Source of the DNA: a virus
DNA: 64,000 nt
IMG/VR virus record: IMGVR_UViG_3300044946_000048
Coordinates: 24,620 to 88,619 of that record
Direction: 5' to 3' (one strand)
The translations under genes and the position numbers were made by a program. The notes under the pieces are model-generated. The model had not been told where the DNA came from. It did no database searches and worked only from the letters and a program-made list of their open reading frames with translations. Position 1 is the stretch's first letter, and the number at the start of each line of letters is the position of its first letter. Shown here one piece after another: positions 1 to 42,020 of this stretch.

Positions 1-252
1 GACTATCATCCGTCTTTGCCCTTAACCCGGCTATCGTCGCGCTAGACGCGCTCCAGCCCTATTTAAGGTTGCTCCAAGAGTGGAGTGCCCAGACTTGAAT
101 GACAATGCTATGAGAACAGAGGCCCGAAGGCTTGTATGAGAAGCATTGTACCTGGCCTTACCCGTCCGCTTACGCGGCCCGCAACTTCCACGGCTCTTTG
201 TCTAGTGGAGTCCTGAACTTACCTCGGTTTCCCGCGATAGTCTAGTTTACCA
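1..252 (-). ncRNA. rnpB: RNase P RNA, reduced type-A-like, 3' end beyond the window edge
   Basis: Minus strand folds into the RNase P core: P2 GACUAUC/GAUAGUC (236-242 with 1-7), P3 CGG-GAAA-CCG, CR-I-like GAGGUAAGUUCAGG (212-225), P5 CUCC/GGAG, P6 CUAGAC/GUCUAG, P7 AAGAG/CUCUU, P8, P9, GGAGCAA-P15-AAUAG, L15 GGGU and J15/2 AGACGGAU. Confidence 0.85.
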
Positions 253-798
253 TTAAGACTTATCTAAACCGCCCAATCCTGTTGAGCCGCCAGTAAGAAA
301 ATTCATCAATGTGTCTACTACTGCTTCCGAATCCGAAACATCCATCTGCTGGCATGTTTGAAATCTATCGTCTGCCCCAACCGTGATGTCGCTCTCCGGT
401 CCAATGAAACCATAATACACGTGGCCTAACTTCTCGTCAACAGTTAAAATTCCAATGATGCGATTACCTAGCCGAGCGCCATTTATTACTAGGTTATGCT
501 TTTCATAAACCGTCGCGGCGCTGAACGGGATTATGCCGTCTTTTGTTTTCGGCTCTTCCTTGTAACTGAACACTACCGGGTTATCTTCCTTCTTAACCGT
601 GGTCGCATCCGTCAAGAAATCTCCGAATGTAGCAGTCGTTCGCTCTGCATTCAACACCATGTGAATGACAGTAAAATCCCGCGAACCACAACTTGCGATA
701 TTATACTCAACAACAGGCTTCGGCTCGGGTTGCTGTGGCATAACTGGTGTTGCCAGCGCCAACATAACTCCGAGGATTATGGCACGGATCGCTTTCAT
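253..798 (-). CDS. exported hypothetical protein
   Basis: ORF begins MKAIRAIILGVMLALATP, which looks like a signal peptide; AGGA precedes the ATG at 798. Confidence 0.7.
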   Translation of the reverse strand: MKAIRAIILGVMLALATPVMPQQPEPKPVVEYNIASCGSRDFTVIHMVLNAERTTATFGDFLTDATTVKKEDNPVVFSYKEEPKTKDGIIPFSAATVYEKHNLVINGARLGNRIIGILTVDEKLGHVYYGFIGPESDITVGADDRFQTCQQMDVSDSEAVVDTLMNFLTGGSTGLGGLDKS

Positions 799-893
799 GT
801 TGCATCCTAAGAGCACCTGATATACAAGGCATTAGTGCTCTGCCGCCTACAAACGCCTAGTAAACTAGGCACGTAGTCCCCTGCTCGGTAAAC

Positions 894-969
894 TGGAAGG
901 CACACTCGGAATCGAACCGAGAATCTACTCTTTAGGAAAGAGTCGCATTGTCCCTTGTGCTATGCGCCC
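894..969 (-). tRNA. tRNA-Arg(CCT)
   Basis: Cloverleaf, anticodon loop TT-CCT-AA, TTCGA T-loop, encoded CCA. Confidence 0.93.
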
Positions 970-977
970 ATAAAACT

Positions 978-1052
978 TGGAGGGCCGTCCCGGAATTGAA
1001 CCGAGGTCTCTTCGTTAGAAGCGAAGCGCACTGTCCGTTGTACGAACAGCCC
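978..1052 (-). tRNA. tRNA-Arg(TCT)
   Basis: Cloverleaf, loop CT-TCT-AA, encoded CCA. Confidence 0.93.
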
Positions 1053-1058
1053 TTAAAC

Positions 1059-1132
1059 TGGCAGACCGTGGATGAATCGAACACCCGCTTCTTGATTTGG
1101 AGGCAAGAAGACTACCACTATCTTAACAGCCT
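1059..1132 (-). tRNA. tRNA-Trp(CCA)
   Basis: Cloverleaf, loop CT-CCA-AA, G73, encoded CCA; one anticodon-stem mismatch. Confidence 0.88.
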
Positions 1133-1139
1133 GCGAAAC

Positions 1140-1490
1140 TTATTTGATTCCTAATTTCTTCAGCAACAAGTAATTCTTGATTGCGTAATATGCTTCCCCG
1201 GCTGCAACGACTCCGGAATAAATCATACCAGCTAACCAGACCTTGCTGCCTATAAGCAATCCGATGAATAGATACGCCGCGCCGCTCAACCAGGTTGCGA
1301 ACGACTGTCCAACCTTACTAAACAGCCAACGCATTATCGGATTGCCTTCAACAAAACCCTTATTAGCCCCGAGGCCAATCATCGTAGTAATACCGTCACC
1401 GATGATTGCTAGCAAGCCGAGAACTAAAACACCGAACAGCGCTAACCACGGACCCGCTGGCACAGACATACCGATTGGTGTAATCATCAT
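1140..1490 (-). CDS. DUF5658-like membrane protein
   Basis: Hydrophobic helices with a D-x-x-TT...G...E-G-N-P motif. Confidence 0.7.
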   Translation of the reverse strand: MMITPIGMSVPAGPWLALFGVLVLGLLAIIGDGITTMIGLGANKGFVEGNPIMRWLFSKVGQSFATWLSGAAYLFIGLLIGSKVWLAGMIYSGVVAAGEAYYAIKNYLLLKKLGIK

Positions 1491-1663
1491 GCCTCGCTCA
1501 GAAATTGTTCACATATTGCCCATGCGGACTTCATCATCCAAGCACGAGCATTGTTGATTCGAACTCGCTCTCCGGTTCTTGCATCGAACACGGTCAACGT
1601 AATCTTCGGTGGAAGATTGAGCCGATAACCAGAAAACGTTCGTTCAACTATTCTATCTCTCAT
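1487..1663 (-). CDS. small hypothetical protein (58 aa)
   Basis: ATG 5 nt after the tRNA-Gly CCA; its stop overlaps the next start (ATGA). Confidence 0.55.
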   Translation of the reverse strand: MRDRIVERTFSGYRLNLPPKITLTVFDARTGERVRINNARAWMMKSAWAICEQFLSEA

Positions 1664-1668
1664 AAAAT

Positions 1669-1743
1669 TGGAGCGGGACATCGGATTCGAACCGACCCTC
1701 TCAGTTTGGAAGACTAATGTGCTACCACTAACACTAGTCCCGC
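1669..1743 (-). tRNA. tRNA-Gly(TCC)
   Basis: Cloverleaf, loop CT-TCC-AA, U73, CCA. Confidence 0.94.
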
Positions 1744-1752
1744 TTTGAAACT

Positions 1753-1826
1753 TGGAGCGACGTGCGGTAATCGAAACCGCGCCTAGTGCTTGGCAAGCAC
1801 TCGTTCTACCACTATACCAACATCGC
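1753..1826 (-). tRNA. tRNA-Gly(GCC)
   Basis: Cloverleaf, loop TT-GCC-AA, U73, CCA. Confidence 0.93.
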
Positions 1827-2271
1827 TCGGAACTTTTTCTCTCGTATAGTGCTGGCACTCTTTACATAGAGTATGATATCCAGACCAGTGAGAAGAATTT
1901 TTACTAAACTGCACCGTTGGGAGAAACTTCTTATGTCTATTGCACCAACTCATTCCTGACGGGCATTTAATTCTCAATTTCGAGAACTGCCCGTCTGGAC
2001 CTGCTGGACGATCAGGCCTGTTACACCAAGTATGAGAAAATGCAATATTCTCCAAATCCCAAAATAATTTTGTGTCTACGTGCAGCCAAGGTTTCTTATG
2101 TTCTATTGTAAGGTCTTCGACCTTCACTATCTTAGACGTACACTTAAAACAAACATCTTCGTTTAACTTTTGAAGACACCTAAACAAAAGTATCTTTTTA
2201 AGTCTCCCCGAGGCTGTACCCCAAGGCATTCCTAGCTGTGATGCCTTCACAGCATTTGAAGTTCCTGACAT
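1783..2271 (-). CDS. HNH-type homing endonuclease inserted in the tRNA array
   Basis: CFKC...TIEHKKPW...NIAFSHTWCN motif plus a C-terminal Cys cluster; AT-rich; GGAAGG precedes the ATG at 2271; stop lies inside tRNA-Gly(GCC). Confidence 0.75.
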   Translation of the reverse strand: MSGTSNAVKASQLGMPWGTASGRLKKILLFRCLQKLNEDVCFKCTSKIVKVEDLTIEHKKPWLHVDTKLFWDLENIAFSHTWCNRPDRPAGPDGQFSKLRIKCPSGMSWCNRHKKFLPTVQFSKNSSHWSGYHTLCKECQHYTREKVPSDVGIVVERVLAKH

Positions 2272-2293
2272 GGATACCTTCCTGTCTTTAACT

Positions 2294-2366
2294 TGCGCCA
2301 AATGGGAGTCGAACCCAATATCACTAGTTTATGAGGCTAGTATGATTATCCGTTTCACTCTGCCGC
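2294..2366 (-). tRNA. tRNA-CAT (Met or Ile2) with degenerate 3' end
   Basis: D, anticodon (CT-CAT-AA) and T arms present; acceptor has a G:G mismatch; no encoded CCA. Confidence 0.75.
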
Positions 2367-2371
2367 AAACT

Positions 2372-2447
2372 TGGTCGCTCTGGTTGGAATCGAACCAACT
2401 ATGCACGGTTTATGAGACCGCTGCCTCATCCGGCTAGCTTCAAAGCG
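2372..2447 (-). tRNA. tRNA-Met(CAT)
   Basis: Cloverleaf, loop CT-CAT-AA, A73, CCA. Confidence 0.9.
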
Positions 2448-2453
2448 AAAACT

Positions 2454-2537
2454 TGGTACCCCGCGAGAGATTTGAACTCCCATGACCGAAGTCGCCGCGT
2501 TCTAAGCGCGGTGTGTCTGCCGTTCCACCAGCAGGGC
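2454..2537 (-). tRNA. tRNA-Leu(TAG)
   Basis: Long variable arm, loop CT-TAG-AA, A73, CCA. Confidence 0.94.
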
Positions 2538-2543
2538 ATAAAA

Positions 2544-2645
2544 TCAATTCCAGAACAAACTAATTTGAAACTTTAAATCTTTTACAAACCAGGCGACAAG
2601 TATTGTGATGAATACTACGCCACCGATGACTTCAAATATGTTCAT
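2544..2645 (-). CDS. putative 33-aa membrane peptide
   Basis: MNIFEVIGGVVFITILVAWFVKDLKFQISLFWN fills almost the whole gap between two tRNAs. Confidence 0.5.
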   Translation of the reverse strand: MNIFEVIGGVVFITILVAWFVKDLKFQISLFWN

Positions 2646-2649
2646 AAAC

Positions 2650-2723
2650 TGGTACTCGGTGGGAGACTCGAACTCCCTTTGCTGGATTGAAAGTCCAACG
2701 TATTACCCATATACGAACTGAGC
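2650..2723 (-). tRNA. tRNA-Glu(TTC)
   Basis: Cloverleaf, loop CT-TTC-AA, CCA. Confidence 0.93.
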
Positions 2724-2729
2724 AAAATC

Positions 2730-2811
2730 TTGAGCCCTTGCTTTCCTTACAGTCCGGCAAGTTAGCATTCAGCCGCAATCGTGTAAGCGACGTGCTGAAG
2801 CCTCGGCTCAA
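2730..2811 (-). ncRNA. three-way-junction RNA with kissing loops (copy A)
   Basis: Closing stem UUGAGCC/GGCUCAA; two hairpins whose loops contain the complementary CUUACA and UGUAAG. Confidence 0.65.
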
Positions 2812-2824
2812 ACTCAAATAAACT

Positions 2825-2898
2825 TGGTACCCGGAAGCGGAATCGAACCGCTGCTACATCCGTGAGAGGGATGCGTCCTACCGTTAAACGATCTGGGC
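2825..2898 (-). tRNA. tRNA-Glu(CTC)
   Basis: Cloverleaf, loop CT-CTC-AC, CCA. Confidence 0.93.
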
Positions 2899-2900
2899 AC

Positions 2901-2930
2901 TGGCGGGCTCCGCCTTTCGACTCGGCCCGT
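2901..2930 (-). ncRNA. CCA-terminated mini-hairpin
   Basis: ACGGGCCGAGUC-GAAA-GGCGGAGCCCG-CCA, located between two tRNAs. Confidence 0.5.
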
Positions 2931-2935
2931 GAAAC

Positions 2936-3013
2936 TGGCGGAATGGATGGGATTCGAACCCACGATAATCTGTCGTGACAGGACAGTGCCATTGGCCGCT
3001 AGGCGACCACTCC
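2936..3013 (-). tRNA. tRNA-Asp(GTC)
   Basis: Cloverleaf, loop CT-GTC-AC, G73, CCA. Confidence 0.94.
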
Positions 3014-3022
3014 GTATAAAAT

Positions 3023-3097
3023 TGGAGCTAAGTGATGGAAATCGAACCATCGTTTCAGCTTTACCAAAGCTGCGTCTTACCATTAGACGAACCAAGC
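3023..3097 (-). tRNA. tRNA-Thr(GGT)
   Basis: Cloverleaf, loop TT-GGT-AA, CCA. Confidence 0.9.
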
Positions 3098-3101
3098 AAA
3101 C

Positions 3102-3175
3102 TGGAGCCAAGTAAAGGAATTGAACCTTTCTTTGTGGTTTACGAAACCACCGTATTACCGCTATACGAACAAGGC
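3102..3175 (-). tRNA. tRNA-Thr(CGT)
   Basis: Cloverleaf, loop TT-CGT-AA, CCA. Confidence 0.92.
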
Positions 3176-3183
3176 ATAAACTC

Positions 3184-3259
3184 TGGAGCACCGCATTCGA
3201 TTCGAACGAATGTGACGAAGGTACAAGCTTCGTATACTAGACCGCTATATGAGCAGTGC
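3184..3259 (-). tRNA. tRNA-Thr(TGT)
   Basis: Cloverleaf, loop CT-TGT-AC, CCA. Confidence 0.92.
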
Positions 3260-3269
3260 TCGAAACTAA

Positions 3270-3405
3270 TTCCAGGCAACAATCGCGTCGAGAGTCTCTT
3301 GAAGAGGGAGTCGAACCCTGCGCCCGATTTTACTCGGGCACCCAGACCATCCTGGCTATCCCCACGTGGCGGGGATAGAAGTATCTCAAAACTACGGCAC
3401 TGGAA
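3270..3405 (-). ncRNA. Y RNA-like RNA with tRNA-like domain
   Basis: Terminal stem UUCCAG/CUGGAA; shares UGCCGUAG...UACUUC...UUGUUGCC with the RNAs upstream of Ro60; internal D-like arm and AGGG-UUCGACU-CCCU T arm. Confidence 0.75.
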
Positions 3406-3412
3406 AATTGTA

Positions 3413-3508
3413 AGTCGCAGGGCAACAGGCGCATCAGGATAGTGTGGGGATTTCACCCACGTTCCTTTTAGGCAAAGAAGTAACCCGACACTAACGGCAC
3501 CTACGACT
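3413..3508 (-). ncRNA. Y RNA-like RNA (short)
   Basis: Terminal stem AGUCGUAG/CUGCGACU; UGCCGUUAG...GGUUACUUC...CUGUUGCC motif; one T-arm-like hairpin GUGGG-UGAAAUC-CCCAC. Confidence 0.72.
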
Positions 3509-3513
3509 AAAAT

Positions 3514-3589
3514 TGGCTGTGTCCCTCGGATTCGAACCGAGACCCTAGGCATTAACAGTGCCCTATCATACCAGTTAGACCAGAACACA
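3514..3589 (-). tRNA. tRNA-Asn(GTT)
   Basis: Cloverleaf, loop CT-GTT-AA, G73, CCA. Confidence 0.93.
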
Positions 3590-3599
3590 ACGTAAACTT

Positions 3600-3674
3600 T
3601 GGAGGCCCCACTCGGATTCAAACCGAGGTTAACGGTTTCGAAGACCGTAGTCCTATTCGCTGAACGATAGAGCC
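3600..3674 (-). tRNA. tRNA-Arg(TCG)
   Basis: Cloverleaf, loop CT-TCG-AA, CCA. Confidence 0.92.
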
Positions 3675-3679
3675 AAACT

Positions 3680-3754
3680 TGGAGGACCGTCGGGGAGTCG
3701 AACCCCGCTCCTGGCGTTCGTAGCGCCATGCATTGTCCGATATACGAACAGTCC
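3680..3754 (-). tRNA. tRNA-Arg(ACG)
   Basis: Cloverleaf, loop CT-ACG-AA, CCA. Confidence 0.92.
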
Positions 3755-3765
3755 GCAAAAATTAA

Positions 3766-3838
3766 TTGAACGCATTCTCCGTCGTAACACAGAGACACAG
3801 GCACGAAGGTTACGATGTTCGTGTCGCCTTACGTTCAA
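3766..3838 (-). ncRNA. three-way-junction RNA with kissing loops (copy B)
   Basis: Closing stem UUGAACGU/GCGUUCAA; loops contain the complementary CGUAAC and GUUACG; CCUGUG between the two hairpins. Confidence 0.65.
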
Positions 3839-3841
3839 AAT

Positions 3842-3917
3842 TGGTAGCCCGTAAGAGAATCGAACTCTTCCGGTCTGGGTGTAAACCAGATGCATACGAC
3901 CAGTTTGCTAACAGGCT
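3842..3917 (-). tRNA. tRNA-Val(TAC)
   Basis: Cloverleaf, loop TT-TAC-AC, A73, CCA. Confidence 0.92.
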
Positions 3918-3982
3918 ACAGAAAATAGCGGCGTACTGCGATACAGGGCTTTCAACCTGCATACGAATTTTGCCGCGAAATT

Positions 3983-4056
3983 TGGTGGACCGTGGGGGAG
4001 TCGGACCCCCAACGCTTCGGTGCAAGCGAAGCAGTATCCCATTTACCTAACAGCCC
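3983..4056 (-). tRNA. tRNA-Ala(TGC)
   Basis: Loop CT-TGC-AC, G3:U70 pair, A73, CCA. Confidence 0.92.
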
Positions 4057-4063
4057 ATAAAAT

Positions 4064-4138
4064 TGGTTCCCAGGGATGGAGTCGAACCATCGGCCTCTTC
4101 TTTATCAGAGAAGCATTCTGCCGCTGAACTACCCGGAA
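4064..4138 (-). tRNA. tRNA-Ile(GAT)
   Basis: Cloverleaf, loop CT-GAT-AA, CCA. Confidence 0.93.
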
Positions 4139-4145
4139 ACGAAAC

Positions 4146-4235
4146 TGGTGGAAGCGAAAGGATTCGAACCTTTTAGTGCCGCAAGGGCATTCTGTTTTAC
4201 AGACAGACACGACCCGCCGTCTTCGCCGCACTTCC
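4146..4235 (-). tRNA. tRNA-Tyr(GTA)
   Basis: Long variable arm, loop CT-GTA-AA, CCA. Confidence 0.92.
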
Positions 4236-4248
4236 ACTGAAACTTGTC

Positions 4249-4337
4249 TGGGAACCGACGGGGGATTCTCCCGTCCCATCCTACGGGCCGCTAGCAGGTA
4301 TCCGTAAGCATTCAATCTATCTCGAACTGCGTTCCCA
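4249..4337 (-). ncRNA. cloverleaf-like RNA without CCA or canonical anticodon
   Basis: 7-bp closing stem UGGGAAC/GUUCCCA enclosing three hairpins; the last is T-arm-like (GACGGG-AGAAUCC-CCCGUC). Confidence 0.55.
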
Positions 4338-4344
4338 CGAAACT

Positions 4345-4419
4345 TGGTACCCCGACCGAGACTCGAACTCGGACATTCTCCTTAAAAGGGAGTATTGCTG
4401 CCACTCGCATCCTCAGGGT
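4345..4419 (-). tRNA. tRNA-Lys(TTT)
   Basis: Loop CT-TTT-AA, T arm, CCA; atypical D arm. Confidence 0.88.
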
Positions 4420-4537
4420 GTAAAATCTGTTCTAAAGATATCTTCCCTCTATCGAATTCCAATGTCCTTTGTCTTACAATGGTGTGGGCCTTAACTGCGT
4501 TCCTACGTGCTGCTTCACTATGTTTAACCGATCTCAT
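4382..4537 (-). pseudogene. 51-aa ORF, possible homing endonuclease remnant
   Basis: GGAGG precedes the ATG; MRSVKHSEAARRN...KISLEQIL recalls phage HNH N-termini; ends inside tRNA-Lys. Confidence 0.4.
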
Positions 4538-4601
4538 ATACCCTCCCTAAAGGGTAGTCCGGGGTGTTAGGGCACCCCGAACCCGATGTAGCTACAAACT
4601 T

Positions 4602-4677
4602 TGGTGCGCCTACTCGGACTTGAACCGAGACCTTACCGGGTAAGAACCGGAGATTCTGCCACTCGAAATCCAGGCAC
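4602..4677 (-). tRNA. tRNA-Lys(CTT)
   Basis: Loop TT-CTT-AC, T arm, CCA. Confidence 0.9.
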
Positions 4678-4687
4678 ACTGAAAACT

Positions 4688-4773
4688 TGGTGCGGCTGGC
4701 AGGATTCGGACCTGCACGCTCGTTGGAGCACGGGGGTTTAAGTCCCGCTTGTCTTCCATTCCATCACAACCGC
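4688..4773 (-). tRNA. tRNA-Leu(TAA)
   Basis: Long variable arm, loop CT-TAA-AC, CCA. Confidence 0.9.
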
Positions 4774-4777
4774 AAAT

Positions 4778-4851
4778 TGGTCGTCGGTGAGTGAATCGAA
4801 CACTCGTCAAGCCCTTATAAGGAGGCCATTCTGCCATTGAACTAACCGACA
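4778..4851 (-). tRNA. tRNA-Ile(TAT)
   Basis: Loop CT-TAT-AA, A73, CCA; weak anticodon stem. Confidence 0.8.
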
Positions 4852-4859
4852 AAAATCAA

Positions 4860-4942
4860 TGGGGCCTAGGCCGAGCTTTAAAAGGCTGGACCATGGAGCA
4901 GAAAGGTTCTCACGCCAGTGTGCTCTTAGTGAGAAGACCCCA
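4860..4942 (-). ncRNA. structured RNA with possible pseudoknot
   Basis: Closing stem UGGGGUCU/AGGCCCCA; hairpin UCUCAC/GUGAGA whose loop GAGCA can pair with downstream UGCUC. Confidence 0.5.
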
Positions 4943-4946
4943 AACT

Positions 4947-5017
4947 TGGTGCGGCCTCATCGAAACCGAACATTCGAATCGTTAAACCGACAATACTATC
5001 TGGCGATTGTCAGCCGC
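4947..5017 (-). ncRNA. CCA-terminated tRNA-like RNA lacking an anticodon arm
   Basis: Acceptor-like GCGGCU/GGCCGC-ACCA with only two internal hairpins (GACAAU/AUUGUC and UCGAA/UUCGA). Confidence 0.55.
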
Positions 5018-5115
5018 AAATCTTTTAGTCATTTTAGTCGGGCGGCTGGTTCACCGTGTCGGTAGCTAACCTAATTTCCCGATTCGTACGTACTTTCCAG
5101 CCCGCACTCTAAACT

Positions 5116-5199
5116 TGGTCCGCCGCAAAGGATTTGAACCTTTACACCCGAAGGCGCTCGCTCTTGAGGCGAGTGCGTCTGCCGTTCCGCCAGCAGCGG
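5116..5199 (-). tRNA. tRNA-Leu(CAA)
   Basis: Long variable arm, loop CT-CAA-GA, CCA. Confidence 0.94.
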
Positions 5200-5267
5200 A
5201 TAATATTTTATGGAGCTTGTCGATGCTCCTGAACGAGGGCAGTTTTTATTCGTGCCCAGAGGAAACT

Positions 5268-5342
5268 TGGTCCTGAACCAGAGAGTCGAACTCCGTACGC
5301 CACCCTCTTCAGGGGTGCGCTCTACCGATGAGCTAGATCAGG
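5268..5342 (-). tRNA. tRNA-Phe(GAA)
   Basis: Cloverleaf, loop CT-GAA-GA, CCA. Confidence 0.94.
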
Positions 5343-5456
5343 ATAAACTTTTCAAACAAGAGCGTAGTGCCTTAACCCGTTTGCTACGCCTTGTTCGCGC
5401 TGCATATAAGTTACTGCTCTGACTACTCACTGCATTCGGAGGGTTCCTCCGAAACT

Positions 5457-5532
5457 TGGGGTTGACGCTCGGACTCGAACCGAGACAGATTCCTTCACAG
5501 GGAGCCGTGCTAACCATTACACTACATCGACC
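5457..5532 (-). tRNA. tRNA-His(GTG)
   Basis: Loop CT-GTG-AA, G-1 and C73, CCA. Confidence 0.93.
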
Positions 5533-5550
5533 ATTGAGCCCGACTTAATG

Positions 5551-5579
5551 ATTCTCTCACAACTTCGAAAACTTGTCAA
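5551..5579 (-). promoter_or_regulatory. sigma70-type promoter of the tRNA/ncRNA array
   Basis: TTGACA-17 bp-GAGAAT with upstream AAAAATAG, just ahead of tRNA-His. Confidence 0.75.
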
Positions 5580-5660
5580 GCACTATTTTTAACTTTCTTT
5601 AGTCGGTTGTATAGATGCTTGGGCGACTCGTCGTTACTGTTACGATAACGATGCCCTTCA

Positions 5661-5879: not shown

Positions 5880-5924
5880 GATAACCTTCCTTTGGAAACT
5901 TGTCAAGTACTATTTTCAACTTTC

Positions 5925-18022: not shown

Positions 18023-18748
18023 ATTATACTTTTATCGTTAGATTTTGAGACGACAGGAACGGATAAGGCAAATGACCGTGTCATCGAATTCGGTGCGGTT
18101 CTTTATTCCACAGGACAGAACAAGTGCTTGGACAACCAGGGCTCGCTCGTACAAACGGACAAGCCTATCTCAGCGGAGATAACGGAAATAACCGGGATCA
18201 CTCAAAAGGCCGTGGATAGCTTCGGGTACGACGCCGACGACAGCTTGAACACAGTCATCCAATTGATGGATACCGCTGACCATATCATCGGCTACAACGT
18301 TCGACGCTTCGACAAGCCCGTGCTAGAGAATTGGGCAAAGCGTGCAGGCAGAGAACTTCCTAATAAGATTTGGATTGATTTGTTCGCAGACCTGCCGTGG
18401 CGTGTTACTCGTGGCAAGCTATCCCACGTTGCAGCCGATCATGGCATCATCAATTTGTTTCCACACTCGGCACTCGCAGACGCACAAACAGTGCTCGCCA
18501 TCTTGGGGAAGTACAGCCCTGAGTTAATCCTAGAACGTGCCAAGTCACCCGAGGTTGTGCTGCGTTCGCACCAAGAACGAGGCAACAACGACATAGTGAA
18601 GCAGGCACCATGGAAGTTCAGGTGGAATCCGCCTCGCAGTCTATGGTGGAAGCCAGTTAAGGCAGCAGATGTGGATGAAGTTGTAAAGAAGGCCCCGTTC
18701 CGAATCAGTATCGAAAAGGAACTAACGCCAGAGGAGCTAGATAACTAA
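18023..18748 (+). CDS. DnaQ-like 3'-5' exonuclease with likely ATT start
   Basis: The ExoI motif LDFETTG lies upstream of the annotated TTG; YN..FD and HSALAD follow; GGAG sits 8 nt before ATT at 18023. Confidence 0.85.
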   Translation: MILLSLDFETTGTDKANDRVIEFGAVLYSTGQNKCLDNQGSLVQTDKPISAEITEITGITQKAVDSFGYDADDSLNTVIQLMDTADHIIGYNVRRFDKPVLENWAKRAGRELPNKIWIDLFADLPWRVTRGKLSHVAADHGIINLFPHSALADAQTVLAILGKYSPELILERAKSPEVVLRSHQERGNNDIVKQAPWKFRWNPPRSLWWKPVKAADVDEVVKKAPFRISIEKELTPEELDN

Positions 18749-19149
18749 TGGGAGTCGGATTCAGAGCGGTACAAGACAGAGTTGTTGTCAAGCGTGTAGA
18801 TGATGAATACATGACAGACGGCGGTCTTTACATACCTGACTTGGCGAAGGAACGCCCGGCACAGGGGGTCGTGGTAGCCACGGGTCCAGGCAAGTATGAA
18901 TACGGCGTATTCCAGCCTGTAAACATTCAGCCCGGGGATCACGTGCTATTCGGAAAGTTCTCCGGCCAAGAAGTCAAGGTCGGAGTGGACGAGTTTTTGA
19001 TTCTGCGTGAGGAAGATGTGTTCTTGGTTCTCACGCCGAAGCAAATGAGTGAAGCAGCGCAAGCAGCATTAAAGCAACTAGATCAAGAAAAGGAAGAGGG
19101 GCCGCTAGTCATAGCATTTGCGACAGAGGAACCTACACAGGAGAGTTAA
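18748..19149 (+). CDS. groES: co-chaperonin GroES
   Basis: DRVVVKR...TDGGLYIPD.AKERP.QG.VVA.GPG...GDHVLFGKFSGQEVK...ILREED. Confidence 0.93.
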   Translation: MGVGFRAVQDRVVVKRVDDEYMTDGGLYIPDLAKERPAQGVVVATGPGKYEYGVFQPVNIQPGDHVLFGKFSGQEVKVGVDEFLILREEDVFLVLTPKQMSEAAQAALKQLDQEKEEGPLVIAFATEEPTQES

Positions 19150-39037: not shown

Positions 39038-39108
39038 GTGCGGATGCCGTAGGCCAAGGTTACTTCTACGATAAAGGAAAAACACCTTGTCCGTTTGTTG
39101 CCCCGCAC
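39038..39108 (+). ncRNA. Y RNA, minimal form
   Basis: Terminal stem GUGCGG/CCGCAC; UGCCGUAG...GGUUACUUC...UUUGUUGCC; inner CAAGGU/ACCUUG; upstream of Ro60. Confidence 0.75.
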
Positions 39109-39128
39109 ACAAGTTTAGATGTAAAAGT

Positions 39129-39266
39129 TTGACGAGTACCGTAGATTGGGGTTACTTCTGACTACGAATCAGATAGTGTAGGTTCGAATCCTGCGGCTCA
39201 TCCTCATGATGAGTCTAGTGTAATGGTAGCACATCCCGTTACTTCAATCGCTTGTCGTCTCGTCAA
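39129..39266 (+). ncRNA. YrlA-like Y RNA with circularly permuted tRNA domain
   Basis: Terminal stem UUGACGAG/CUCGUCAA; anticodon arm, T arm GUAGG-UUCGAAU-CCUGC, loop-closed acceptor stem and D arm in that order; abuts the Ro60 gene. Confidence 0.85.
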
Positions 39267-39273
39267 TTAGCTC

Positions 39274-40614
39274 ATGAGGATGAACATGAAGTTAAACAAA
39301 GCCACGCAGTTTGCACTAACGAAGTTTACTCACGAAGGCGCACCAGCCTATCGACACACGAATGCAGCCCAGGACCTGAGCCGTTCCGTAATGGCCTGCA
39401 TGTTATGGGAAAATACGTTCTACGAGTCCGGAGAGGAAATTGCTACACGCATCCAGAATCTCGTAAAAGCGGTCGATCCGGAAGTCGTTTCTGCCATCGC
39501 CATCGAAGCGCGTGAAAAGATGAACCTGCGTCATGTTCCTTTGCTATTGGTAACTGCGATGGCGAAGCTGCCGACACACCGTCACGCCGTGGCCGAAACG
39601 GCTGCACGTGTTATTCAGCGTGCGGACGAACTGGCAGAAGTGCTTGCCATTTACACGAAGGGCCGCACGGGAACCAAGAAGTTGAACAAGCTTTCAAACC
39701 AGCTTAAGAAGGGCGTGGCTACCGCGTTCACAAAGTTCAACGAGTACAGCCTGGCGAAGTATAACCAGGACAACGAAATCAAGCTGCGTGACGTTTTGTT
39801 CGCAGTGCACCCTCGTCCGTTGAACGACGAACAGGGCGCAGTGTGGAAGCGCCTGGCTCAGAATGAACTTGCTACGCCAGACACTTGGGAAGTTGCGCTG
39901 TCAGCAACCAAGGACAAGAGAGCGGAGTGGACTCGTCTGTTGACCGAAGAGAAACTCGGCGCACTTGCTTTGCTTCGTAACTTGCGTAATATGCAACAGG
40001 CAGGAGTGGACGAGAAATTGGTTCGCTCTGCATTGGCGGCGATGAAGACAGAACGTGTCCTACCGTTTCGCTTCGTCGGCGCAGCCAACCATGCTCCGCA
40101 GTGGGAGCCAGAGTTGGAAGCTGCAATGTTGAAGAACCTTGCAGAAATGCCGAAGTTGCCGGGCAAGACGGCTATCGTTGTGGATAATTCCGGGTCGATG
40201 TCGGACAGAATTTCTGGAAAGTCAGAACTGTCTCGCATCGATGCAGCTTGCGCACTTGCAATTTTGGTGCGTGAAGTCTGCGAACGAGCCGTCGTGATTG
40301 GTTTCGGTTCAACCGCAGCCGTGATTCCGGCCCGCAAGGGATTCGCTTTGCGTGATGCTATCAAGCGAGGCCCGGGCGGTGGTACGAACACAGACACAGC
40401 GTTGGCGCTCGCAAGGCAGCAAGGCTATGATCGTATCATTGTAATCACGGACGAACAGTCTCACCAGCGTATCTCTGGCCCGTTGTCCAGAGCAAAGGGC
40501 TACTTCATCAACGTTGCGTCAAACAAGAACGGCATCGGTTACGGTGCGTGGACTCACTTGGACGGATGGTCAGAAGCTATTCTCCAGTACATTCAAGCAA
40601 TCGAACAGGTATAA
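39274..40614 (+). CDS. Ro60/TROVE-domain RNA-binding protein (Rsr-like)
   Basis: THEG, E.TFYE, R..MNLR, IQRADE, TWE..LS, ALLRNLRNM, VLPFRF and vWA MIDAS motifs VDNSGSM, GGT, ITDEQ; start may be 39286. Confidence 0.95.
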   Translation: MRMNMKLNKATQFALTKFTHEGAPAYRHTNAAQDLSRSVMACMLWENTFYESGEEIATRIQNLVKAVDPEVVSAIAIEAREKMNLRHVPLLLVTAMAKLPTHRHAVAETAARVIQRADELAEVLAIYTKGRTGTKKLNKLSNQLKKGVATAFTKFNEYSLAKYNQDNEIKLRDVLFAVHPRPLNDEQGAVWKRLAQNELATPDTWEVALSATKDKRAEWTRLLTEEKLGALALLRNLRNMQQAGVDEKLVRSALAAMKTERVLPFRFVGAANHAPQWEPELEAAMLKNLAEMPKLPGKTAIVVDNSGSMSDRISGKSELSRIDAACALAILVREVCERAVVIGFGSTAAVIPARKGFALRDAIKRGPGGGTNTDTALALARQQGYDRIIVITDEQSHQRISGPLSRAKGYFINVASNKNGIGYGAWTHLDGWSEAILQYIQAIEQV

Positions 40615-40615
40615 C

Positions 40616-41395
40616 GTGTTTGAAAAAATTGCCGTCGGCATAAAAACATTTCTGCGAGACGCCAAGCTGTTTAAGGCGGTCGAGGGAATTCGTACCAATA
40701 TGCCGGGGGCTCAGATCATCATCGCAGACGATGGTGATATGGCACATGAGAAATATAACCTATACTCCGATCTTGTCCTTTGCGGGCACAAGGTCGGAGT
40801 ATATTCTTTTGATTCCGGTTTCGGATTCAAGAGTAACATGATCGTCAATATGCTCGATAGGCCGTATCTTTTAATCGGCTCAGATGATTTCGACTTTACG
40901 CCCAAGGCAGCCGAGGGAGTGAAGACGATGATCGATATTATGGAAGAGAATCCGTGGGACCTGGATATTCTAAGCGGACGGCTGAATGGACGAACCTACG
41001 AATTCTTTCTAGAAGACCTAGGGGATACTATCATCGAGCACAAGGCAGACACAAATTTTAAAATGAACGGAACCCGGCCTCTTGTATACCGGGTTGATCT
41101 GACTGTGAATTATAGCTTGATTCGCCGAGACGTGTTCAAGCAAGTTAAGTTTGATAATGAAGAGATTATCGGAGAAGGCGGGCATGGAGCATTCTTTGTG
41201 GACTGCAAGCGTGCAGGACTCAAGGTAGGATTCACACCGCTGGCAGAAATTAATGAGCAGGATCAGCCGGAAGACAGTGCTCGGTACAAACAATTCAGAG
41301 CGCGAGCACACAGCCCATCCCGGAAGACATTCGATAGGCGGGGAATTAAACGATACGTTTTGGGATCAGGAAAGGTTGATTATGATTGTCGTTAA
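40616..41395 (+). CDS. GT-A (GT2-like) glycosyltransferase
   Basis: IKTFLR, IIIADDG, DSG, SDDF motifs; GTG start 1 nt after the Ro60 stop. Confidence 0.85.
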   Translation: MFEKIAVGIKTFLRDAKLFKAVEGIRTNMPGAQIIIADDGDMAHEKYNLYSDLVLCGHKVGVYSFDSGFGFKSNMIVNMLDRPYLLIGSDDFDFTPKAAEGVKTMIDIMEENPWDLDILSGRLNGRTYEFFLEDLGDTIIEHKADTNFKMNGTRPLVYRVDLTVNYSLIRRDVFKQVKFDNEEIIGEGGHGAFFVDCKRAGLKVGFTPLAEINEQDQPEDSARYKQFRARAHSPSRKTFDRRGIKRYVLGSGKVDYDCR

Positions 41396-42020
41396 ATCCT
41401 GTCATCGTGATCGTCTGCGAGGCTGCCATCAAATCATACGCGAAACCTGGGGTAAGGATGCAGAGGTTCGTTTCTTCATGGGTGGTGAAACCACAGATGC
41501 TCTCATGGTGGACGAAACTACTTTAGATTGTCCAGATGACCACGAAGGCTTGCCATTTAAAACAAAAGCAATGTGTCAATGGTTGAAAGATAAAACAGAT
41601 TATGCATTTTTCTGCGACAATGACACGTTTCTCATTCCTCGTCGCTTACTAGCATGCGGCTATGAGAAGTATGATTACGCGGGTAAGATTGATGTTCTCG
41701 GTAAACCCGGCCAGCCTAGAAGCTATAAAGATTGTAGAGGAATTCTTATACCGCAGTGCTATCCGTTTGCAAGCGGAGGATTTGGATATTGGTTGAGTAA
41801 AAGAGCAATGGAATTAGTGGCGTCCCAAGTGCCAACAACTTGGGCTGAAGACATCTTTGTCGCCCAAGTCACAGGTCCTGAGATTCAGGCGGGCAGAATG
41901 ACAGGCTATAACATTCCAAACTTTCCTAATAAAATATCCTGGCATTTTATCAAGAGGCCAGGAGCAGGCTACGAGCCGTTCAACGGCTGGCAGAAAAAGC
42001 TGTACGAGGAAAACAAGTGA
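41382..42020 (+). CDS. GT31/Fringe-like glycosyltransferase
   Basis: IRETW, RFF.G, LP.KT, CDNDT, FASGG.GY.LS, AED motifs. Confidence 0.85.
   Translation: MIVVKSCHRDRLRGCHQIIRETWGKDAEVRFFMGGETTDALMVDETTLDCPDDHEGLPFKTKAMCQWLKDKTDYAFFCDNDTFLIPRRLLACGYEKYDYAGKIDVLGKPGQPRSYKDCRGILIPQCYPFASGGFGYWLSKRAMELVASQVPTTWAEDIFVAQVTGPEIQAGRMTGYNIPNFPNKISWHFIKRPGAGYEPFNGWQKKLYEENK

What the first reader, a model, noticed from the sequence alone, without database searches (positions are those of the whole stretch)
1..5579. A tRNA operon interleaved with about a dozen non-tRNA structured RNAs
Seen: one leftward promoter at 5551-5579 precedes 28 tRNAs. Nearly every gap over 30 nt that is not an ORF holds a self-contained fold, usually closed by a terminal stem and flanked by the same short AGUUU/AUUUU spacers that separate the tRNAs. 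The set includes Y RNA-like RNAs, kissing-loop RNAs, CCA-ended mimics and RNase P. Inference: tRNA processing punctuates the transcript and releases a panel of small RNAs. With Ro60 and putative end-healing enzymes elsewhere in the window, this may be an RNA decoy, maturation and repair system against tRNA-targeting host defences.
Basis: partly seen in the sequence, partly recalled or inferred. Interest (0 to 1): 0.85.

Follow-up and report, generated by a model that had tools for sequence, protein, structure and literature searches.

The report
Phage tRNA operon carrying extra RNAs
An uncultured soil phage transcribes about 35 tRNA genes as one long unit that also carries its own copy of the tRNA-trimming ribozyme RNase P, two partner RNAs for the phage's Ro60 protein, one new conserved RNA and several unconserved hairpins.

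Summary
The minus strand of window 1-5579 is the upstream 5.6 kb of a roughly 6.8-kb phage tRNA operon. It runs about 1.2 kb past the window start to a terminator. It holds 35 tRNA genes covering all 20 amino acids. In ARAGORN's list, 33 of 34 calls end in an encoded CCA and 31 of 34 are followed by (A)GUUU/AUUUU, against a 3.25% background.

Four kinds of non-tRNA RNA have comparative support:
- a compact class-A RNase P RNA (11 phage contigs, 9 distinct sequences, 97.4% of cells paired, P4 covaries);
- two Y RNAs, paralogs of two next to Ro60 36 kb away, found by models trained only on other phages;
- a conserved four-way-junction RNA, G5 (7 sequences);
- a kissing-loop leader of HNH endonuclease cassettes.

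About eight further spacers have no homolog in roughly 780 kb of related arrays. No RtcB, Rnl2-type RNA ligase or CCA-adding enzyme was found, so the 'repair' reading is unsupported. No RNA-seq data were available.

This scan had already noted phage RNase P RNAs and Y-like RNAs in tRNA operons on other DNA. Four literature searches found no paper on phage-encoded RNase P RNA.

The parts
5551..5580 (-). Operon promoter: -35 TTGACA, 17-nt spacer, TG-extended -10 GAGAAT, within the phage box CTTGACAAGTTT
   Evidence: Similar box ahead of the G026 array.
5343..5456 (-). G1: spacer of three hairpins between tRNA-His and tRNA-Phe. Private to this genome.
   Evidence: MFE z -3.1. No homolog. No paralog on the contig.
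5200..5267 (-). G2: spacer of two small hairpins. Private.
   Evidence: z -2.7. No homolog.
4944..5107 (-). G3a: fold of about 164 nt closed by GUGCGG/CCGCAC, ending ..GCACCA then AGUUU (the 'CCA-ended mimic'). Orphan.
   Evidence: Not a tRNA or tmRNA by relaxed ARAGORN, no Rfam hit at E<=10, no homolog. One X3 contig joins 4841 to 5033.
4860..4938 (-). G3b: spacer whose ends (GGGGUC.. and ..GGCCCC) look complementary by eye. Orphan.
   Evidence: the MFE fold of the element alone does not pair the two ends. No homolog.
4538..4596 (-). Twin-hairpin 'kissing-loop' leader. Loop 1 CCCUAA is complementary to loop 2 UUAGGG, which overlaps the Shine-Dalgarno GGGAGG. It lies ahead of a 51-aa ORF (4382-4537) that runs into tRNA-Lys.
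   Evidence: The same leader precedes HNH ORFs elsewhere on this contig and in relatives.
4236..4344 (-). G5: conserved four-way-junction RNA (core about 4249-4337) with a 7-bp closing stem, three hairpins and no CCA.
   Evidence: 7 sequences (6 distinct), 82% column identity, 31 pairs of which 5 are compensatory. nhmmer hits. No Rfam hit.
3918..3982 (-). G6: single long hairpin spacer.
   Evidence: z -2.8. One weak nhmmer hit, L085, E 1.1e-4.
3755..3841 (-). G7: terminal-stem-closed branched spacer. Orphan.
   Evidence: z -2.1. Closed. No homolog.
3414..3505 (-). Ya1: short Y RNA (YrlB-like) inside the tRNA operon.
   Evidence: R1 33.7 bits, E 3.7e-7. R2 32.7 bits. Homologs occupy the same Asn-to-Thr slot in G008, G026 and G030.
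3267..3406 (-). Ya2: long Y-like RNA with a T-arm (ARAGORN 'tRNA-???' at 3297-3366).
   Evidence: R2 27.7 bits, E 4.5e-4, full-length match. Shares the 5' and 3' blocks with Ya1, Yr1 and Yr2. Not hit by R1 or nhmmer.
2899..2935 (-). G9: small hairpin spacer.
   Evidence: z -1.25. No homolog by nhmmer.
2724..2824 (-). G10: spacer closed by UUGAGCC/GGCUCAA. Orphan.
   Evidence: z -1.1. No homolog.
2544..2645 (-). 33-aa hydrophobic small ORF filling the Glu-to-Leu gap.
   Evidence: No Pfam hit.
2294..2366 (-). tRNA(CAU) found only by Rfam. It lacks an encoded CCA.
   Evidence: 31.8 bits. Sequence.
1783..2271 (-). HNH endonuclease ORF inside the array.
   Evidence: Pfam HNH, E 2e-4. A paralogous ORF follows the RNase P RNA.
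1140..1663 (-). Two small ORFs (58 aa and a 116-aa DUF5658 membrane protein) between tRNA-Gly and tRNA-Trp.
253..816 (-). 187-aa ORF immediately upstream of the RNase P RNA. A counterpart ORF lies in the same slot in G008, G026 and G030.
   Evidence: (no Pfam hit).
1..253 (-). 5' 253 nt of a 297-nt compact class-A RNase P RNA (it continues 44 nt beyond the window start), followed by AAGUUU.
894..5531 (-). 27 canonical tRNA genes (individual coordinates), each with an encoded CCA.
39039..39109 (+). Yr1: short Y RNA directly upstream of Ro60.
   Evidence: R1 54.5 bits, E 1.4e-13. Rfam YrlB 19.6 bits, E 0.29.
39130..39267 (+). Yr2: YrlA-like Y RNA with T-arm, hairpin and D-arm, upstream of Ro60.
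   Evidence: R2 72 bits, E 1.7e-14. Rfam partial tRNA 30.9 bits. Rfam YrlA 17.1 bits.
39274..40614 (+). Ro60 ortholog (TROVE plus vWA domains).
   Evidence: Pfam TROVE 6.9e-18, VWA_2 4.1e-8, vWA_Ro60 3.1e-5.

Best explanation
This is a single phage tRNA operon of about 6.8 kb that serves as a common carrier for several unrelated kinds of RNA gene and for mobile cassettes. It is not one dedicated 'decoy and repair' system.

SHOWN.
1. 35 tRNA genes for all 20 amino acids lie on one strand between one strong promoter and one intrinsic terminator.
2. Each tRNA carries an encoded CCA followed by (A)GUUU/AUUUU. The same motif brackets most non-tRNA elements.
3. A compact class-A RNase P RNA sits inside the array. 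It keeps the P4 core, the bulged U and the L15 GGU that pairs with CCA. Its P3 and specificity domain are shortened and its P18 is absent. It evolves under structural constraint in at least 9 distinct phage sequences.
4. Two Y RNAs in the array belong to the same family as the two beside the phage's Ro60 gene.
5. G5 is a conserved four-way-junction RNA.
6. HNH endonuclease cassettes carry a covarying loop-loop leader that overlaps their ribosome-binding site.
7. The remaining spacers, about eight, are genome-private.

INFERRED.
- A host RNase E-type enzyme cuts at AG|UUU just 3' of each CCA, and 3' exonucleases trim back to the CCA.
- The phage RNase P RNA, presumably with the host RnpA protein because none is encoded on the contig, cuts each 5' leader. 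U stands at -1 in 21 of 34 tRNAs.
- These cuts also free the Y RNAs, G5 and the RNase P RNA itself as discrete stable RNAs.
- The Y RNAs load onto phage Ro60.
- The private spacers are most likely structured insulators, exonuclease stops or remnants of cassette turnover driven by the homing endonucleases.
For: OPERON ANATOMY..

PUNCTUATION. 33 of 34 calls end in CCA and 31 of 34 carry the motif, against 3.25% background. The motif follows 50-83% of tRNAs in the 12 other arrays that hold more than one tRNA. It fits the RN|WUU core of RNase E (passages of PMC5222698).

RNase P RNA.
- Full-length match at E 1.9e-28, with the alignment showing the core.
- Present in 1 of 18 Ro60-phage records and in 9 of 12 lineage records, 3 above the gathering score, one a complete 101.7-kb genome.
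- 61 pairs, 97.4% of 536 cells paired, 35 pairs changed on both sides, 0 of 500 shuffles as high.
- P4 is 100% paired with 3 covarying pairs.
- 105 metagenome stretches carry the lineage pattern, and 63 of the 81 loci examined (80 listed plus the one true genome hit) hold 3 or more tRNAs.
- No rnpA on the contig.

Y RNAs.
- The training set of 18 Ro60-adjacent elements from other phages has 15 of 15 covarying pairs and 93.5% of cells paired.
- In 346,648 nt, every hit at E<0.01 is either Ro60-adjacent or in the Asn-to-Thr array slot.
- The long-form model gives Yr2 72 bits, the G008 array element 58.2 bits and Ya2 27.7 bits.
- TROVE is found only in the window and G008 among the lineage records. 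The complete G035 has neither Ro60 nor array Y RNAs.

G5..

LEADER. 21 of 41 stem-selected twin hairpins have 6 nt or more of loop complementarity, spread over 15 loop variants. Only 25 of 1,620 cross pairings reach that.

PRIVATE SPACERS..

CASSETTE MOSAICISM. An X2 contig replaces window 3514-3733 with 743 nt and 4343-4773 with 497 nt, while 4774-5600 differs at only 5 positions.
Against: - No RNA data. No listed run is RNA, so co-transcription, cleavage at AG|UUU and accumulation of discrete RNAs are all inferred.
- The host is unknown, so the presence of an RNase E-type enzyme and of a compatible RnpA is assumed.
- The window's RNase P RNA scores 87 bits, below Rfam's gathering score of 100. 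Catalysis is untested.
- A promoter-like site (440-412, 10 of 12 matches) inside the upstream ORF could drive the RNase P RNA separately.
- Ya2's E-value is modest and comes from a roughly calibrated model. Rfam's own YrlA and YrlB models score far below threshold.
- G5 has only 5 compensatory pairs in 6 distinct, rather similar sequences.
- Calling the orphan spacers non-functional rests on absence of homologs. Fast-evolving functional RNAs would look the same, and terminal-stem closure is enriched lineage-wide (33 of 73 against 13.0), which hints at selection on shape.
- The Ro60 and array-Y-RNA co-occurrence rests on few complete genomes. G026 and G030 are fragments, and the 102-kb record behind L138 could not be searched.
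Confidence: 0.72

Rival explanations
1. The whole operon is a dedicated RNA decoy, maturation and repair system against tRNA-targeting host defences. The spacers are tRNA-shaped or CCA-ended decoys, Ro60 and the Y RNAs handle damaged RNA, and end-healing enzymes reseal cleaved tRNAs.
For: - Large phage tRNA sets are proposed or shown to counter anticodon nucleases, retron effectors and PARIS (search listing: PMC10264068, PMC11555353, PMC13096335; abstracts only).
- tRNA-shaped non-tRNAs exist here: G5, Ya2 and G3a.
- Ro60 is present.
- The rapid turnover of spacers, together with lineage-wide enrichment of closed folds, would fit an arms race.
Against: - No RtcB, Rnl2-type ligase or CCA-adding enzyme on the 83%-complete contig.
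- No kinase/phosphatase or ligase domain in the 48 ORFs scanned. The only candidates are a generic DEDD exonuclease and a sub-threshold Metallophos_2 hit.
- Most relatives with the same kind of array lack Ro60 and Y RNAs.
- The orphan spacers do not resemble tRNA anticodon arms and are not detected by tRNA models at E<=10.
Confidence: 0.15
2. All non-tRNA elements other than RNase P RNA are incidental: processing spacers, decayed tRNAs and debris of homing-endonuclease traffic, with no function of their own.
For: - 12 of 15 window gap elements have no nhmmer homolog in 13 related arrays, and 11 of 15 have none in 81 further loci.
- 10 of 15 gaps have MFE z-scores above -2.
- Whole blocks are swapped between near-identical strains.
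- HNH ORFs are scattered through all the arrays.
Against: - Ya1 and its homologs hold the same slot in all 4 group-A arrays and match a model trained on Ro60-adjacent RNAs.
- G008 carries a canonical YrlA-like RNA in its array at 58.2 bits.
- G5 is 82% conserved across 6 distinct sequences in different array contexts.
- The leader loops covary in 15 variants.
Confidence: 0.08
3. The RNase P RNA is a decaying fragment captured from a host, not a working ribozyme.
For: - It scores below Rfam's gathering threshold (87 against 100 bits).
- P3 is reduced to two pairs, the specificity domain is shortened (63 nt against 90) and a 24-nt region is absent.
- No protein subunit is encoded on the contig.
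Against: - 9 distinct sequences keep 97.4% of cells paired, with 35 of 61 pairs compensated.
- P4 is perfectly kept through 3 covarying pairs.
- The CR-I, CR-V and L15 GGU letters are invariant.
- The RNA always lies inside large arrays and is absent from the 12-tRNA relatives.
- None of the 8 cellular-genome pattern hits is a host RNase P. The single real hit is a phage-sized contig of 99,937 bp.
Confidence: 0.05

Closest known systems
Bacterial class-A RNase P RNA (Rfam RF00010; E. coli M1 RNA / rnpB)
   Same: Full-length covariance-model match covering P1-P5, P7-P12 and P15. The P4 pseudoknot has a bulged U, and the GAGGAAG.UC and ACAGAA.CC core strands and the L15 GGU are conserved.
   Different: It is phage-encoded and lies inside a tRNA operon. 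It is compact: 260-329 nt across the lineage and 297 nt here. P3 is reduced to two pairs, the specificity domain is shortened and a 24-nt region of the model is absent. No cognate protein gene is on the contig. The nearest thing in print that I found is extra, deviant RNase P RNA copies flanking an endonuclease gene in two mycobacterial genomes (PMC9569102, passages).
YrlA/YrlB Y RNAs with Ro60/Rsr (Chen et al. 2014, PMC4201824; Thermus phage phiLo Ro60 with Yrl1 and Yrl2, PMC12135203)
   Same: Two Y RNAs lie directly upstream of a phage Ro60 gene. One is short and one has a T-arm, a hairpin and a D-arm. A 5'/3' stem carries a GNCGAA(N)G-like motif.
   Different: Two further paralogs lie 36 kb away inside the tRNA operon. 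Chen et al. reported only hits within 4 kb of Ro60 and discarded hits overlapping tandem tRNA genes. The window's motif is GCCGUAG paired with UUGUUGCC, not GGCGAAG. A UUACUUC box is conserved. Rfam's YrlA and YrlB models score 17-20 bits, far below their thresholds of 69 and 97.
Phage T4 tRNA gene cluster with stable 'species 1 and 2' RNAs (rnaC, rnaD) and the SegB homing endonuclease
   Same: A polycistronic phage tRNA transcript that also yields non-tRNA stable RNAs of unknown role and houses a homing endonuclease gene. The endonuclease part is documented in PMC2330249 (abstract in the listing).
   Different: The species 1 and 2 part is recalled, not verified. The terms were absent from PMC2330249. 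T4 has 8 tRNAs against 35 here, and no RNase P RNA, no Y RNAs and no Ro60. The endonucleases here are HNH, not GIY-YIG.
Spacer-derived RNAs of bacterial tRNA operons (leuZ 3'ETS sponge) released by RNase E
   Same: A functional small RNA cut out of a polycistronic tRNA transcript by RNase E (PMC5222698, passages).
   Different: There a single 3' trailer acts by base-pairing with sRNAs. Here there are many internal spacers, most of them closed folds, with no known targets.

Membership tests
Bacterial RNase P RNA class A (RF00010) | Full-length match to the family covariance model | tested here: met
   Model positions 1-367 matched at E 1.9e-28 and 87 bits. This is below the curated gathering score of 100. 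3 of 11 lineage members exceed it, at 111.8, 102 and 102 bits.
Bacterial RNase P RNA class A (RF00010) | P4 long-range helix with a bulged U, and conserved core strands | tested here: met
   7 pairs, 63 of 63 cells paired, 3 pairs with changes on both sides. Core letters are invariant in the 11-sequence alignment.
Bacterial RNase P RNA class A (RF00010) | Helices maintained by compensatory change | tested here: met
   61 pairs, 97.4% of cells paired, 35 pairs changed on both sides, 0 of 500 shuffles as high, and slid controls at 33-41% paired.
Bacterial RNase P RNA class A (RF00010) | L15 GGU that pairs with the tRNA 3' CCA | tested here: met
   CGGGT is invariant in all 11 sequences and aligns to the model's CCGGGU. 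The substrates carry an encoded CCA.
Bacterial RNase P RNA class A (RF00010) | Catalytic cleavage of pre-tRNA 5' leaders | not testable with these tools
   Needs an in-vitro ribozyme assay or rnpB complementation.
YrlA/YrlB Y RNAs | Encoded next to a Ro60/Rsr gene (within 4 kb in Chen et al. 2014) | tested here: not met
   Met for Yr1 and Yr2, which end 165 and 7 nt upstream of Ro60. Not met for the array copies Ya1 and Ya2, which lie about 36 kb from Ro60 on the other strand. The array copies are therefore filed as Y-family paralogs by sequence and structure, not by this context criterion.
YrlA/YrlB Y RNAs | Stem formed by the 5' and 3' ends carrying the GNCGAAN0-1G motif (Rsr-binding region) | tested here: inconclusive
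   The terminal stem is present and covaries in the family. The other phages carry GGCGAAG or GGUGAAG. The window copies carry GCCGU(U)AG, or ACCGUAG in Yr2: one position off the motif, with an extra U in Ya1.
YrlA/YrlB Y RNAs | tRNA-like module with T and D arms (YrlA type) | tested here: met
   Yr2: R2 72 bits, with T-arm, hairpin and D-arm aligned, and an Rfam tRNA partial match at 30.9 bits. Ya2 has a T-arm only (ARAGORN '???'). Ya1 and Yr1 are the short type without this module.
YrlA/YrlB Y RNAs | Match to Rfam RF02553 / RF02565 at the gathering score | tested here: not met
   YrlA 17.1 bits against 69, and YrlB 19.6 bits against 97, both at the Ro60-adjacent copies. Nothing in the array at E<=10. 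This is a curated threshold for narrow seed alignments, not a structural feature.
YrlA/YrlB Y RNAs | Match to a model built only from Ro60-adjacent RNAs of other phages | tested here: met
   Ya1 33.7 bits, E 3.7e-7. Yr1 54.5 bits. Ya2 27.7 bits, E 4.5e-4. Yr2 72 bits.
YrlA/YrlB Y RNAs | Binding to Ro60 | not testable with these tools
   Needs EMSA or co-purification.
tmRNA (considered for the CCA-ended G3a) | tRNA-like domain plus tag reading frame, recognised by ARAGORN or Rfam | tested here: not met
   No tmRNA call at a relaxed threshold. No Rfam tmRNA hit at E<=10 in 4852-5115.
tRNA (considered for the CCA-ended G14, outside the window) | Cloverleaf with a 7-nt anticodon loop, T-arm and CCA end, maintained by covariation | tested here: met
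   11 sequences, 26 pairs of which 15 are compensatory. The loop UUUGGAA is invariant in 10 of 11 sequences (one reads CGG). ARAGORN at -ps90 of 11 tRNA-Pro.

The most novel reading that the evidence does not exclude
The operon is a self-processing RNA arsenal. The phage ships its own RNase P ribozyme on the same transcript as its substrates, so that a complete tRNA set and a set of protein-hijacking RNAs mature independently of host RNase P RNA supply. Those hijacking RNAs would be the Y RNAs, which load phage Ro60 and possibly recruit host PNPase, and the tRNA-shaped G5. On this reading the fast-turning-over, end-closed spacers are not junk. They are hypervariable decoys or sponges for host tRNA-targeting nucleases, exchanged as cassettes by the resident homing endonucleases.
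Probability: 0.12. Interest if true: 0.85.

Novelty: new variant of a known kind. Interest (0 to 1): 0.64.

Why it matters
RNase P RNA is regarded as a universal cellular housekeeping ribozyme. A widespread lineage of phages of about 100 kb carries a slimmed, structurally constrained copy inside its tRNA operons: 11 viral contigs, one mis-binned 'archaeal' contig and 105 metagenome stretches. This means viruses can encode a ribozyme for tRNA maturation. It also offers natural minimal class-A designs for ribozyme studies.

Finding Y RNAs inside a tRNA operon, far from Ro60, suggests that earlier surveys undercount phage Y RNAs, because they looked only next to Ro60 and discarded hits in tRNA clusters. 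It also ties Y RNA biogenesis to the tRNA-processing machinery. This fits the published cleavage of a mycobacterial YrlA by RNase P.

G5 and the kissing-loop leader are compact, covarying RNA motifs ready for experiment.

The negative result matters as well. Most 'structured spacers' in such arrays are not conserved and should not be counted as RNA genes without further evidence.

Tried and rejected
ANCHORING RELATIVES. Anchoring on array-embedded proteins (187-aa ORF, DUF5658 ORF) found no relative in IMG/VR. blastn of the array against deposited phages gave only hits of single-tRNA size, with 0 records covering 80% or more. The RNase P RNA alone had no match there. DNA-polymerase relatives at 21-51% identity were a dead end: 0 of 5 records have RNase P RNA and they hold 0-3 tRNAs.

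EXPRESSION. No RNA holder was listed, so nothing can be said about expression. The contigs laid cover the stretch unevenly. Parts without cover are not interpreted.

RO60 CO-OCCURRENCE. The record behind L138, a 102-kb contig with two array Y RNAs, is not held, so it was not searched. G026 and G030 are fragments.

HOST. The genome contigs pattern scan gave 8 hits. Seven have no RNase P RNA there and are chance matches. The eighth is a phage-sized contig inside an 'archaeon' MAG, so there is no host clue.

ORPHAN SPACERS. blastn, nhmmer, Rfam at E<=10, relaxed ARAGORN (tRNA, intron and tmRNA modes) and a search for paralogs on the contig all returned nothing for G1, G2, G3a, G3b, G7, G9, G10 and G15.

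REJECTED READINGS.
- G3a as a tmRNA or an intron-containing tRNA. I noticed a short internal ORF by eye, but no tool supports either reading.
- The spacers as decayed tRNAs. No tRNA-model hits.

LITERATURE.
- Four searches for phage-encoded RNase P RNA listed nothing relevant.
- 'find' in three tRNA-array papers gave 0 mentions of RNase P in two of them (PMC6409571, PMC12803027). In the third (PMC6582537) the passages shown mention only the chromosomal gene.
- The T4 species 1 and 2 RNAs could not be verified in PMC2330249 and are cited from recall.
- Supplementary tables of Chen et al. 2014, which list the phage YrlA hits, were not seen and could show array-embedded cases.

UNUSED. The third covariance-model slot, structure prediction and complex prediction were not used.

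Full report
WHAT IS THERE.

The window is bases 24620-88619 of an 88,619-bp IMG/VR viral contig, 83% complete by CheckV. It encodes a primase-polymerase, a family-A DNA polymerase, ribonucleotide reductase, ThyX, a UvrD helicase, an integrase and a large sugar-modification cluster.

On the minus strand, a strong promoter precedes a dense run of tRNA genes. The promoter is TTGACA-17-GAGAAT with a TG extension at 5579-5551, inside a box CTTGACAAGTTT that occurs on that strand only here and at 5896-5907.

ARAGORN finds 28 tRNAs in the window and 34 on the contig. The array therefore runs about 1.2 kb past the window start, to a G+C-rich hairpin followed by a T-run, which I read by eye as an intrinsic terminator. 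One ARAGORN call ('tRNA-???', 3297-3366) is really the T-arm of a Y-like RNA. Rfam adds a tRNA(CAU) at 2294-2366. An element missed by ARAGORN's defaults is an atypical tRNA-Pro(UGG). The operon therefore has 35 tRNA genes, covering all 20 amino acids.

PUNCTUATION.

Of the 34 ARAGORN calls, 33 end in an encoded CCA and 31 are followed at once by A0-2[GAT]TTT. The per-position background of that motif in the region is 3.25%. In the 12 other arrays of the lineage that hold more than one tRNA, the motif follows 50-83% of tRNAs.

In 8 of 10 whole non-coding window gaps the motif also recurs just before the next tRNA.

AG|UUU and AU|UUU fit the RNase E core consensus 'RN|WUU', with its dominant U at +2 (PMC5222698, passages read). 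That paper also recalls that RNase E cuts near tRNA 3' ends and can release a functional spacer RNA. U precedes the tRNA 5' end in 21 of 34 cases. I recall, without checking it here, that bacterial RNase P prefers U at -1. Cleavage at these sites is inference, since no RNA data exist (see Tried and rejected).

RNase P RNA.

Window 1-253 matches Rfam's class-A RNase P model at E 2.3e-19 but is cut by the window edge. On the contig the RNA is 297 nt, matches model positions 1-367 and scores 87 bits at E 1.9e-28, below the gathering score of 100. The alignment shows both P4 strands, the L15 GGU, a two-pair P3, a shortened specificity domain (63 nt against 90) and a missing 24-nt region. The RNA is followed by AAGUUU.

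Relatives found through the DNA polymerase lack it (0 of 5 records). One of 18 phage records found through Ro60 has it (G008). G008 also has the same tRNA order, with the RNase P RNA in the same slot.

Two exact-pattern scans of IMG/VR then gave 12 more contigs. 9 of these 12 carry the RNA, three above the gathering score, and one is a complete 101.7-kb genome with terminal repeats.

In the 11-sequence alignment (9 distinct sequences):
- RNAalifold predicts 54 pairs, 32 of them with compensatory change.
- With P4 added, 97.4% of 536 cells are paired and 35 of 61 pairs change on both sides. No shuffle out of 500 reaches this, and slid controls pair at 33-41%.
- P4 alone is paired in 63 of 63 cells, with three covarying pairs.

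A degenerate lineage pattern occurs in 105 metagenome stretches. 63 of the 81 loci examined (the 80 listed plus the one true genome hit, L071) hold 3 or more tRNAs. Among 8 hits in cellular genomes, only one is real, and it is a 99,937-bp contig with at least 20 tRNAs binned into an 'archaeon' MAG. The two 12-tRNA relatives lack the RNA. No RnpA gene is on the contig.

This is a working-looking, phage-borne, compact ribozyme lineage that travels with large tRNA arrays.

Y RNAs.

Ro60 (TROVE plus vWA domains) is at 39274-40614. The 240 nt upstream hold two elements flanked by AUUUU/AAGUUU. These share an invariant 5' block (..CCGU-AG..UACUUCU) and a 3' block (UUGU[UC]G[CU]C) with the two elements in the array gap between tRNA-Asn and tRNA-Thr.

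18 other phage Ro60 loci carry one to five similar elements directly upstream. 18 short elements from 12 of these loci, none from the window's lineage, align to a two-helix structure. 93.5% of cells are paired and 15 of 15 pairs covary.

The model built from them (R1) was run over 346,648 nt. At E<0.01 it hits only:
- the Ro60-adjacent elements of the window (54.5 bits) and of G008;
- elements in the Asn-to-Thr slot of all four group-A arrays, including window 3414-3505 at 33.7 bits, E 3.7e-7.

In 434,858 nt of metagenome loci R1 hits only one further array.

A second model (R2), built from 9 long Ro60-adjacent forms, gives 72 bits for window 39130-39267, 58.2 bits for an element inside the G008 array, and 27.7 bits (E about 4.5e-4, full length) for window 3267-3406. 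Its partial matches are T-arm/D-arm pairs of neighbouring tRNAs, the false-positive class that Chen et al. warned of.

Rfam's own YrlB and YrlA models give only 19.6 and 17.1 bits at the Ro60-adjacent copies. Chen et al. define a GNCGAAN0-1G motif. Other phages here carry GGCGAAG or GGUGAAG, and the window carries GCCGUAG.

TROVE is found only in the window and in G008 among the lineage records. The complete G035 has neither Ro60 nor array Y RNAs.

Phage Ro60 with two upstream Y-like RNAs is known (PMC4201824; PMC12135203, passages). Extra copies inside a tRNA operon 36 kb away fall outside what those surveys reported.

OTHER SUPPORTED ELEMENTS.

G5 (4236-4344) has homologs in G008, G028 and four metagenome loci. 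The 7 sequences (6 distinct) are 82% identical by column. They fold into a four-way junction with a 7-bp closing stem. 5 of 31 pairs show compensatory change, so the support is real but thin.

The same leader precedes HNH endonuclease ORFs on this contig and in relatives. When members were selected by their stems alone, 21 of 41 had 6-7 nt of loop-to-loop complementarity, spread over 15 loop variants. Only 25 of 1,620 mismatched pairings reached that. Loop 2 overlaps the Shine-Dalgarno sequence. It is therefore a cis-regulatory leader of mobile cassettes, not a free small RNA.

UNSUPPORTED ELEMENTS.

G1, G2, G3a (the CCA-ended fold), G3b, G7, G9, G10 and the post-Pro element have no homolog:
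- by blastn or nhmmer in 13 related arrays;
- in 81 further loci;
- as paralogs on the contig;
- in Rfam at E<=10.

G6 has one weak hit. Only G1, G2, G6, G7 and the Y-RNA gap reach an MFE z-score of -2 or lower.

Arrays with the same tRNA order fill the same slots with unrelated sequences. A near-identical strain replaces two blocks outright.

Even so, end-closed folds are enriched among non-coding gaps lineage-wide (33 of 73 against 13.0 expected). Selection on shape, for insulation or exonuclease protection, is therefore plausible.

INTERPRETATION.

The best reading is a carrier operon. A complete phage tRNA set is processed at CCA-(A)G|UUU sites and by an in-operon ribozyme. Y RNAs, G5 and the ribozyme itself ride along and are presumably released by the same cuts. 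Homing-endonuclease cassettes churn the spacers.

The 'decoy' part is untested.

Published work makes an anti-defence role for large phage tRNA sets credible (abstracts in the listing). The cleavage of M. smegmatis YrlA by RNase P gives a mechanistic reason for Y RNAs to sit among tRNAs.

NOVELTY.

Four literature searches and targeted reading found no description of phage-encoded RNase P RNA. The nearest case is a pair of extra deviant copies beside an endonuclease gene in two mycobacteria.

Earlier notes of this scan already record compact RNase P RNAs in phage tRNA arrays on four other genomes, and Y-like RNAs in phage tRNA operons. The kinds are therefore recurrent in this scan. This window adds a well-sampled lineage in which all of them are combined.

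Noticed in passing
window 40514-52609 (+): A long phage-borne sugar-modification cluster follows Ro60. It holds a family-11 glycosyltransferase, three galactosyltransferase-like ORFs, a GHMP kinase, GDP-mannose 4,6-dehydratase and two epimerases.
   Followed up: no
window 412-440 (-): A promoter-like site (TTGACG-17-TATTAT, 10 of 12 matches) lies inside the 187-aa ORF, about 160 nt upstream of the RNase P RNA. It could give the ribozyme its own transcript.
   Followed up: no
window 4382-4537 (-): The 51-aa ORF behind the kissing-loop leader has no stop codon of its own before it runs into tRNA-Lys(UUU). It looks like a decayed endonuclease cassette.
   Followed up: partly
L053 (G030), gap between tRNA-Trp and tRNA-Arg(TCT): An element of about 130 nt has a 7-bp acceptor-like stem, ends in ACCA, has an internal T-arm and carries the Y-family box GGUUACUUCC near its 3' end. 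It may be a tRNA/Y-RNA hybrid. R1 gave only E 0.062 nearby.
   Followed up: no
L037 (G008) 18990-19059 and L057 (G026) about 5300-5360: A spacer with an identical 38-nt core has closing stems that differ in a compensatory way between the two phages. It resembles the Y 'handle' (GGUACGCAG ... AUGUUGCU). Seen by eye.
   Followed up: no
L071 (contig CABMCB010000059.1, 99,937 bp): A contig binned into an 'uncultured archaeon' MAG carries bacterial-type RNase P RNA inside a tRNA array of at least 20 genes. It is probably a mis-binned phage of this lineage.
   Followed up: partly
window 3514-3733 and 4343-4773: In a soil metagenome contig that is otherwise 99% identical over 4774-5600, these two blocks are replaced by 743 and 497 unrelated letters. 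The breakpoints lie at tRNA boundaries. The evidence is a single contig at depth 11.
   Followed up: partly
window 18128-18748 (+): A DEDD exonuclease of the RNase_T Pfam family (E 6.9e-7). It could be a DNA proofreading or RNA 3'-trimming enzyme. The family is too broad to say which.
   Followed up: no
window 2294-2366 (-): The Rfam-only tRNA(CAU) lacks an encoded CCA and has a G-G mismatch in its acceptor stem (seen by eye). Its counterparts in G008 and G026 do end in CCA.
   Followed up: no
window 61289-62257 (+): A tyrosine integrase (Phage_integrase, E 7.6e-7) on a phage with a 35-tRNA array, suggesting a temperate or integrative lifestyle.
   Followed up: no
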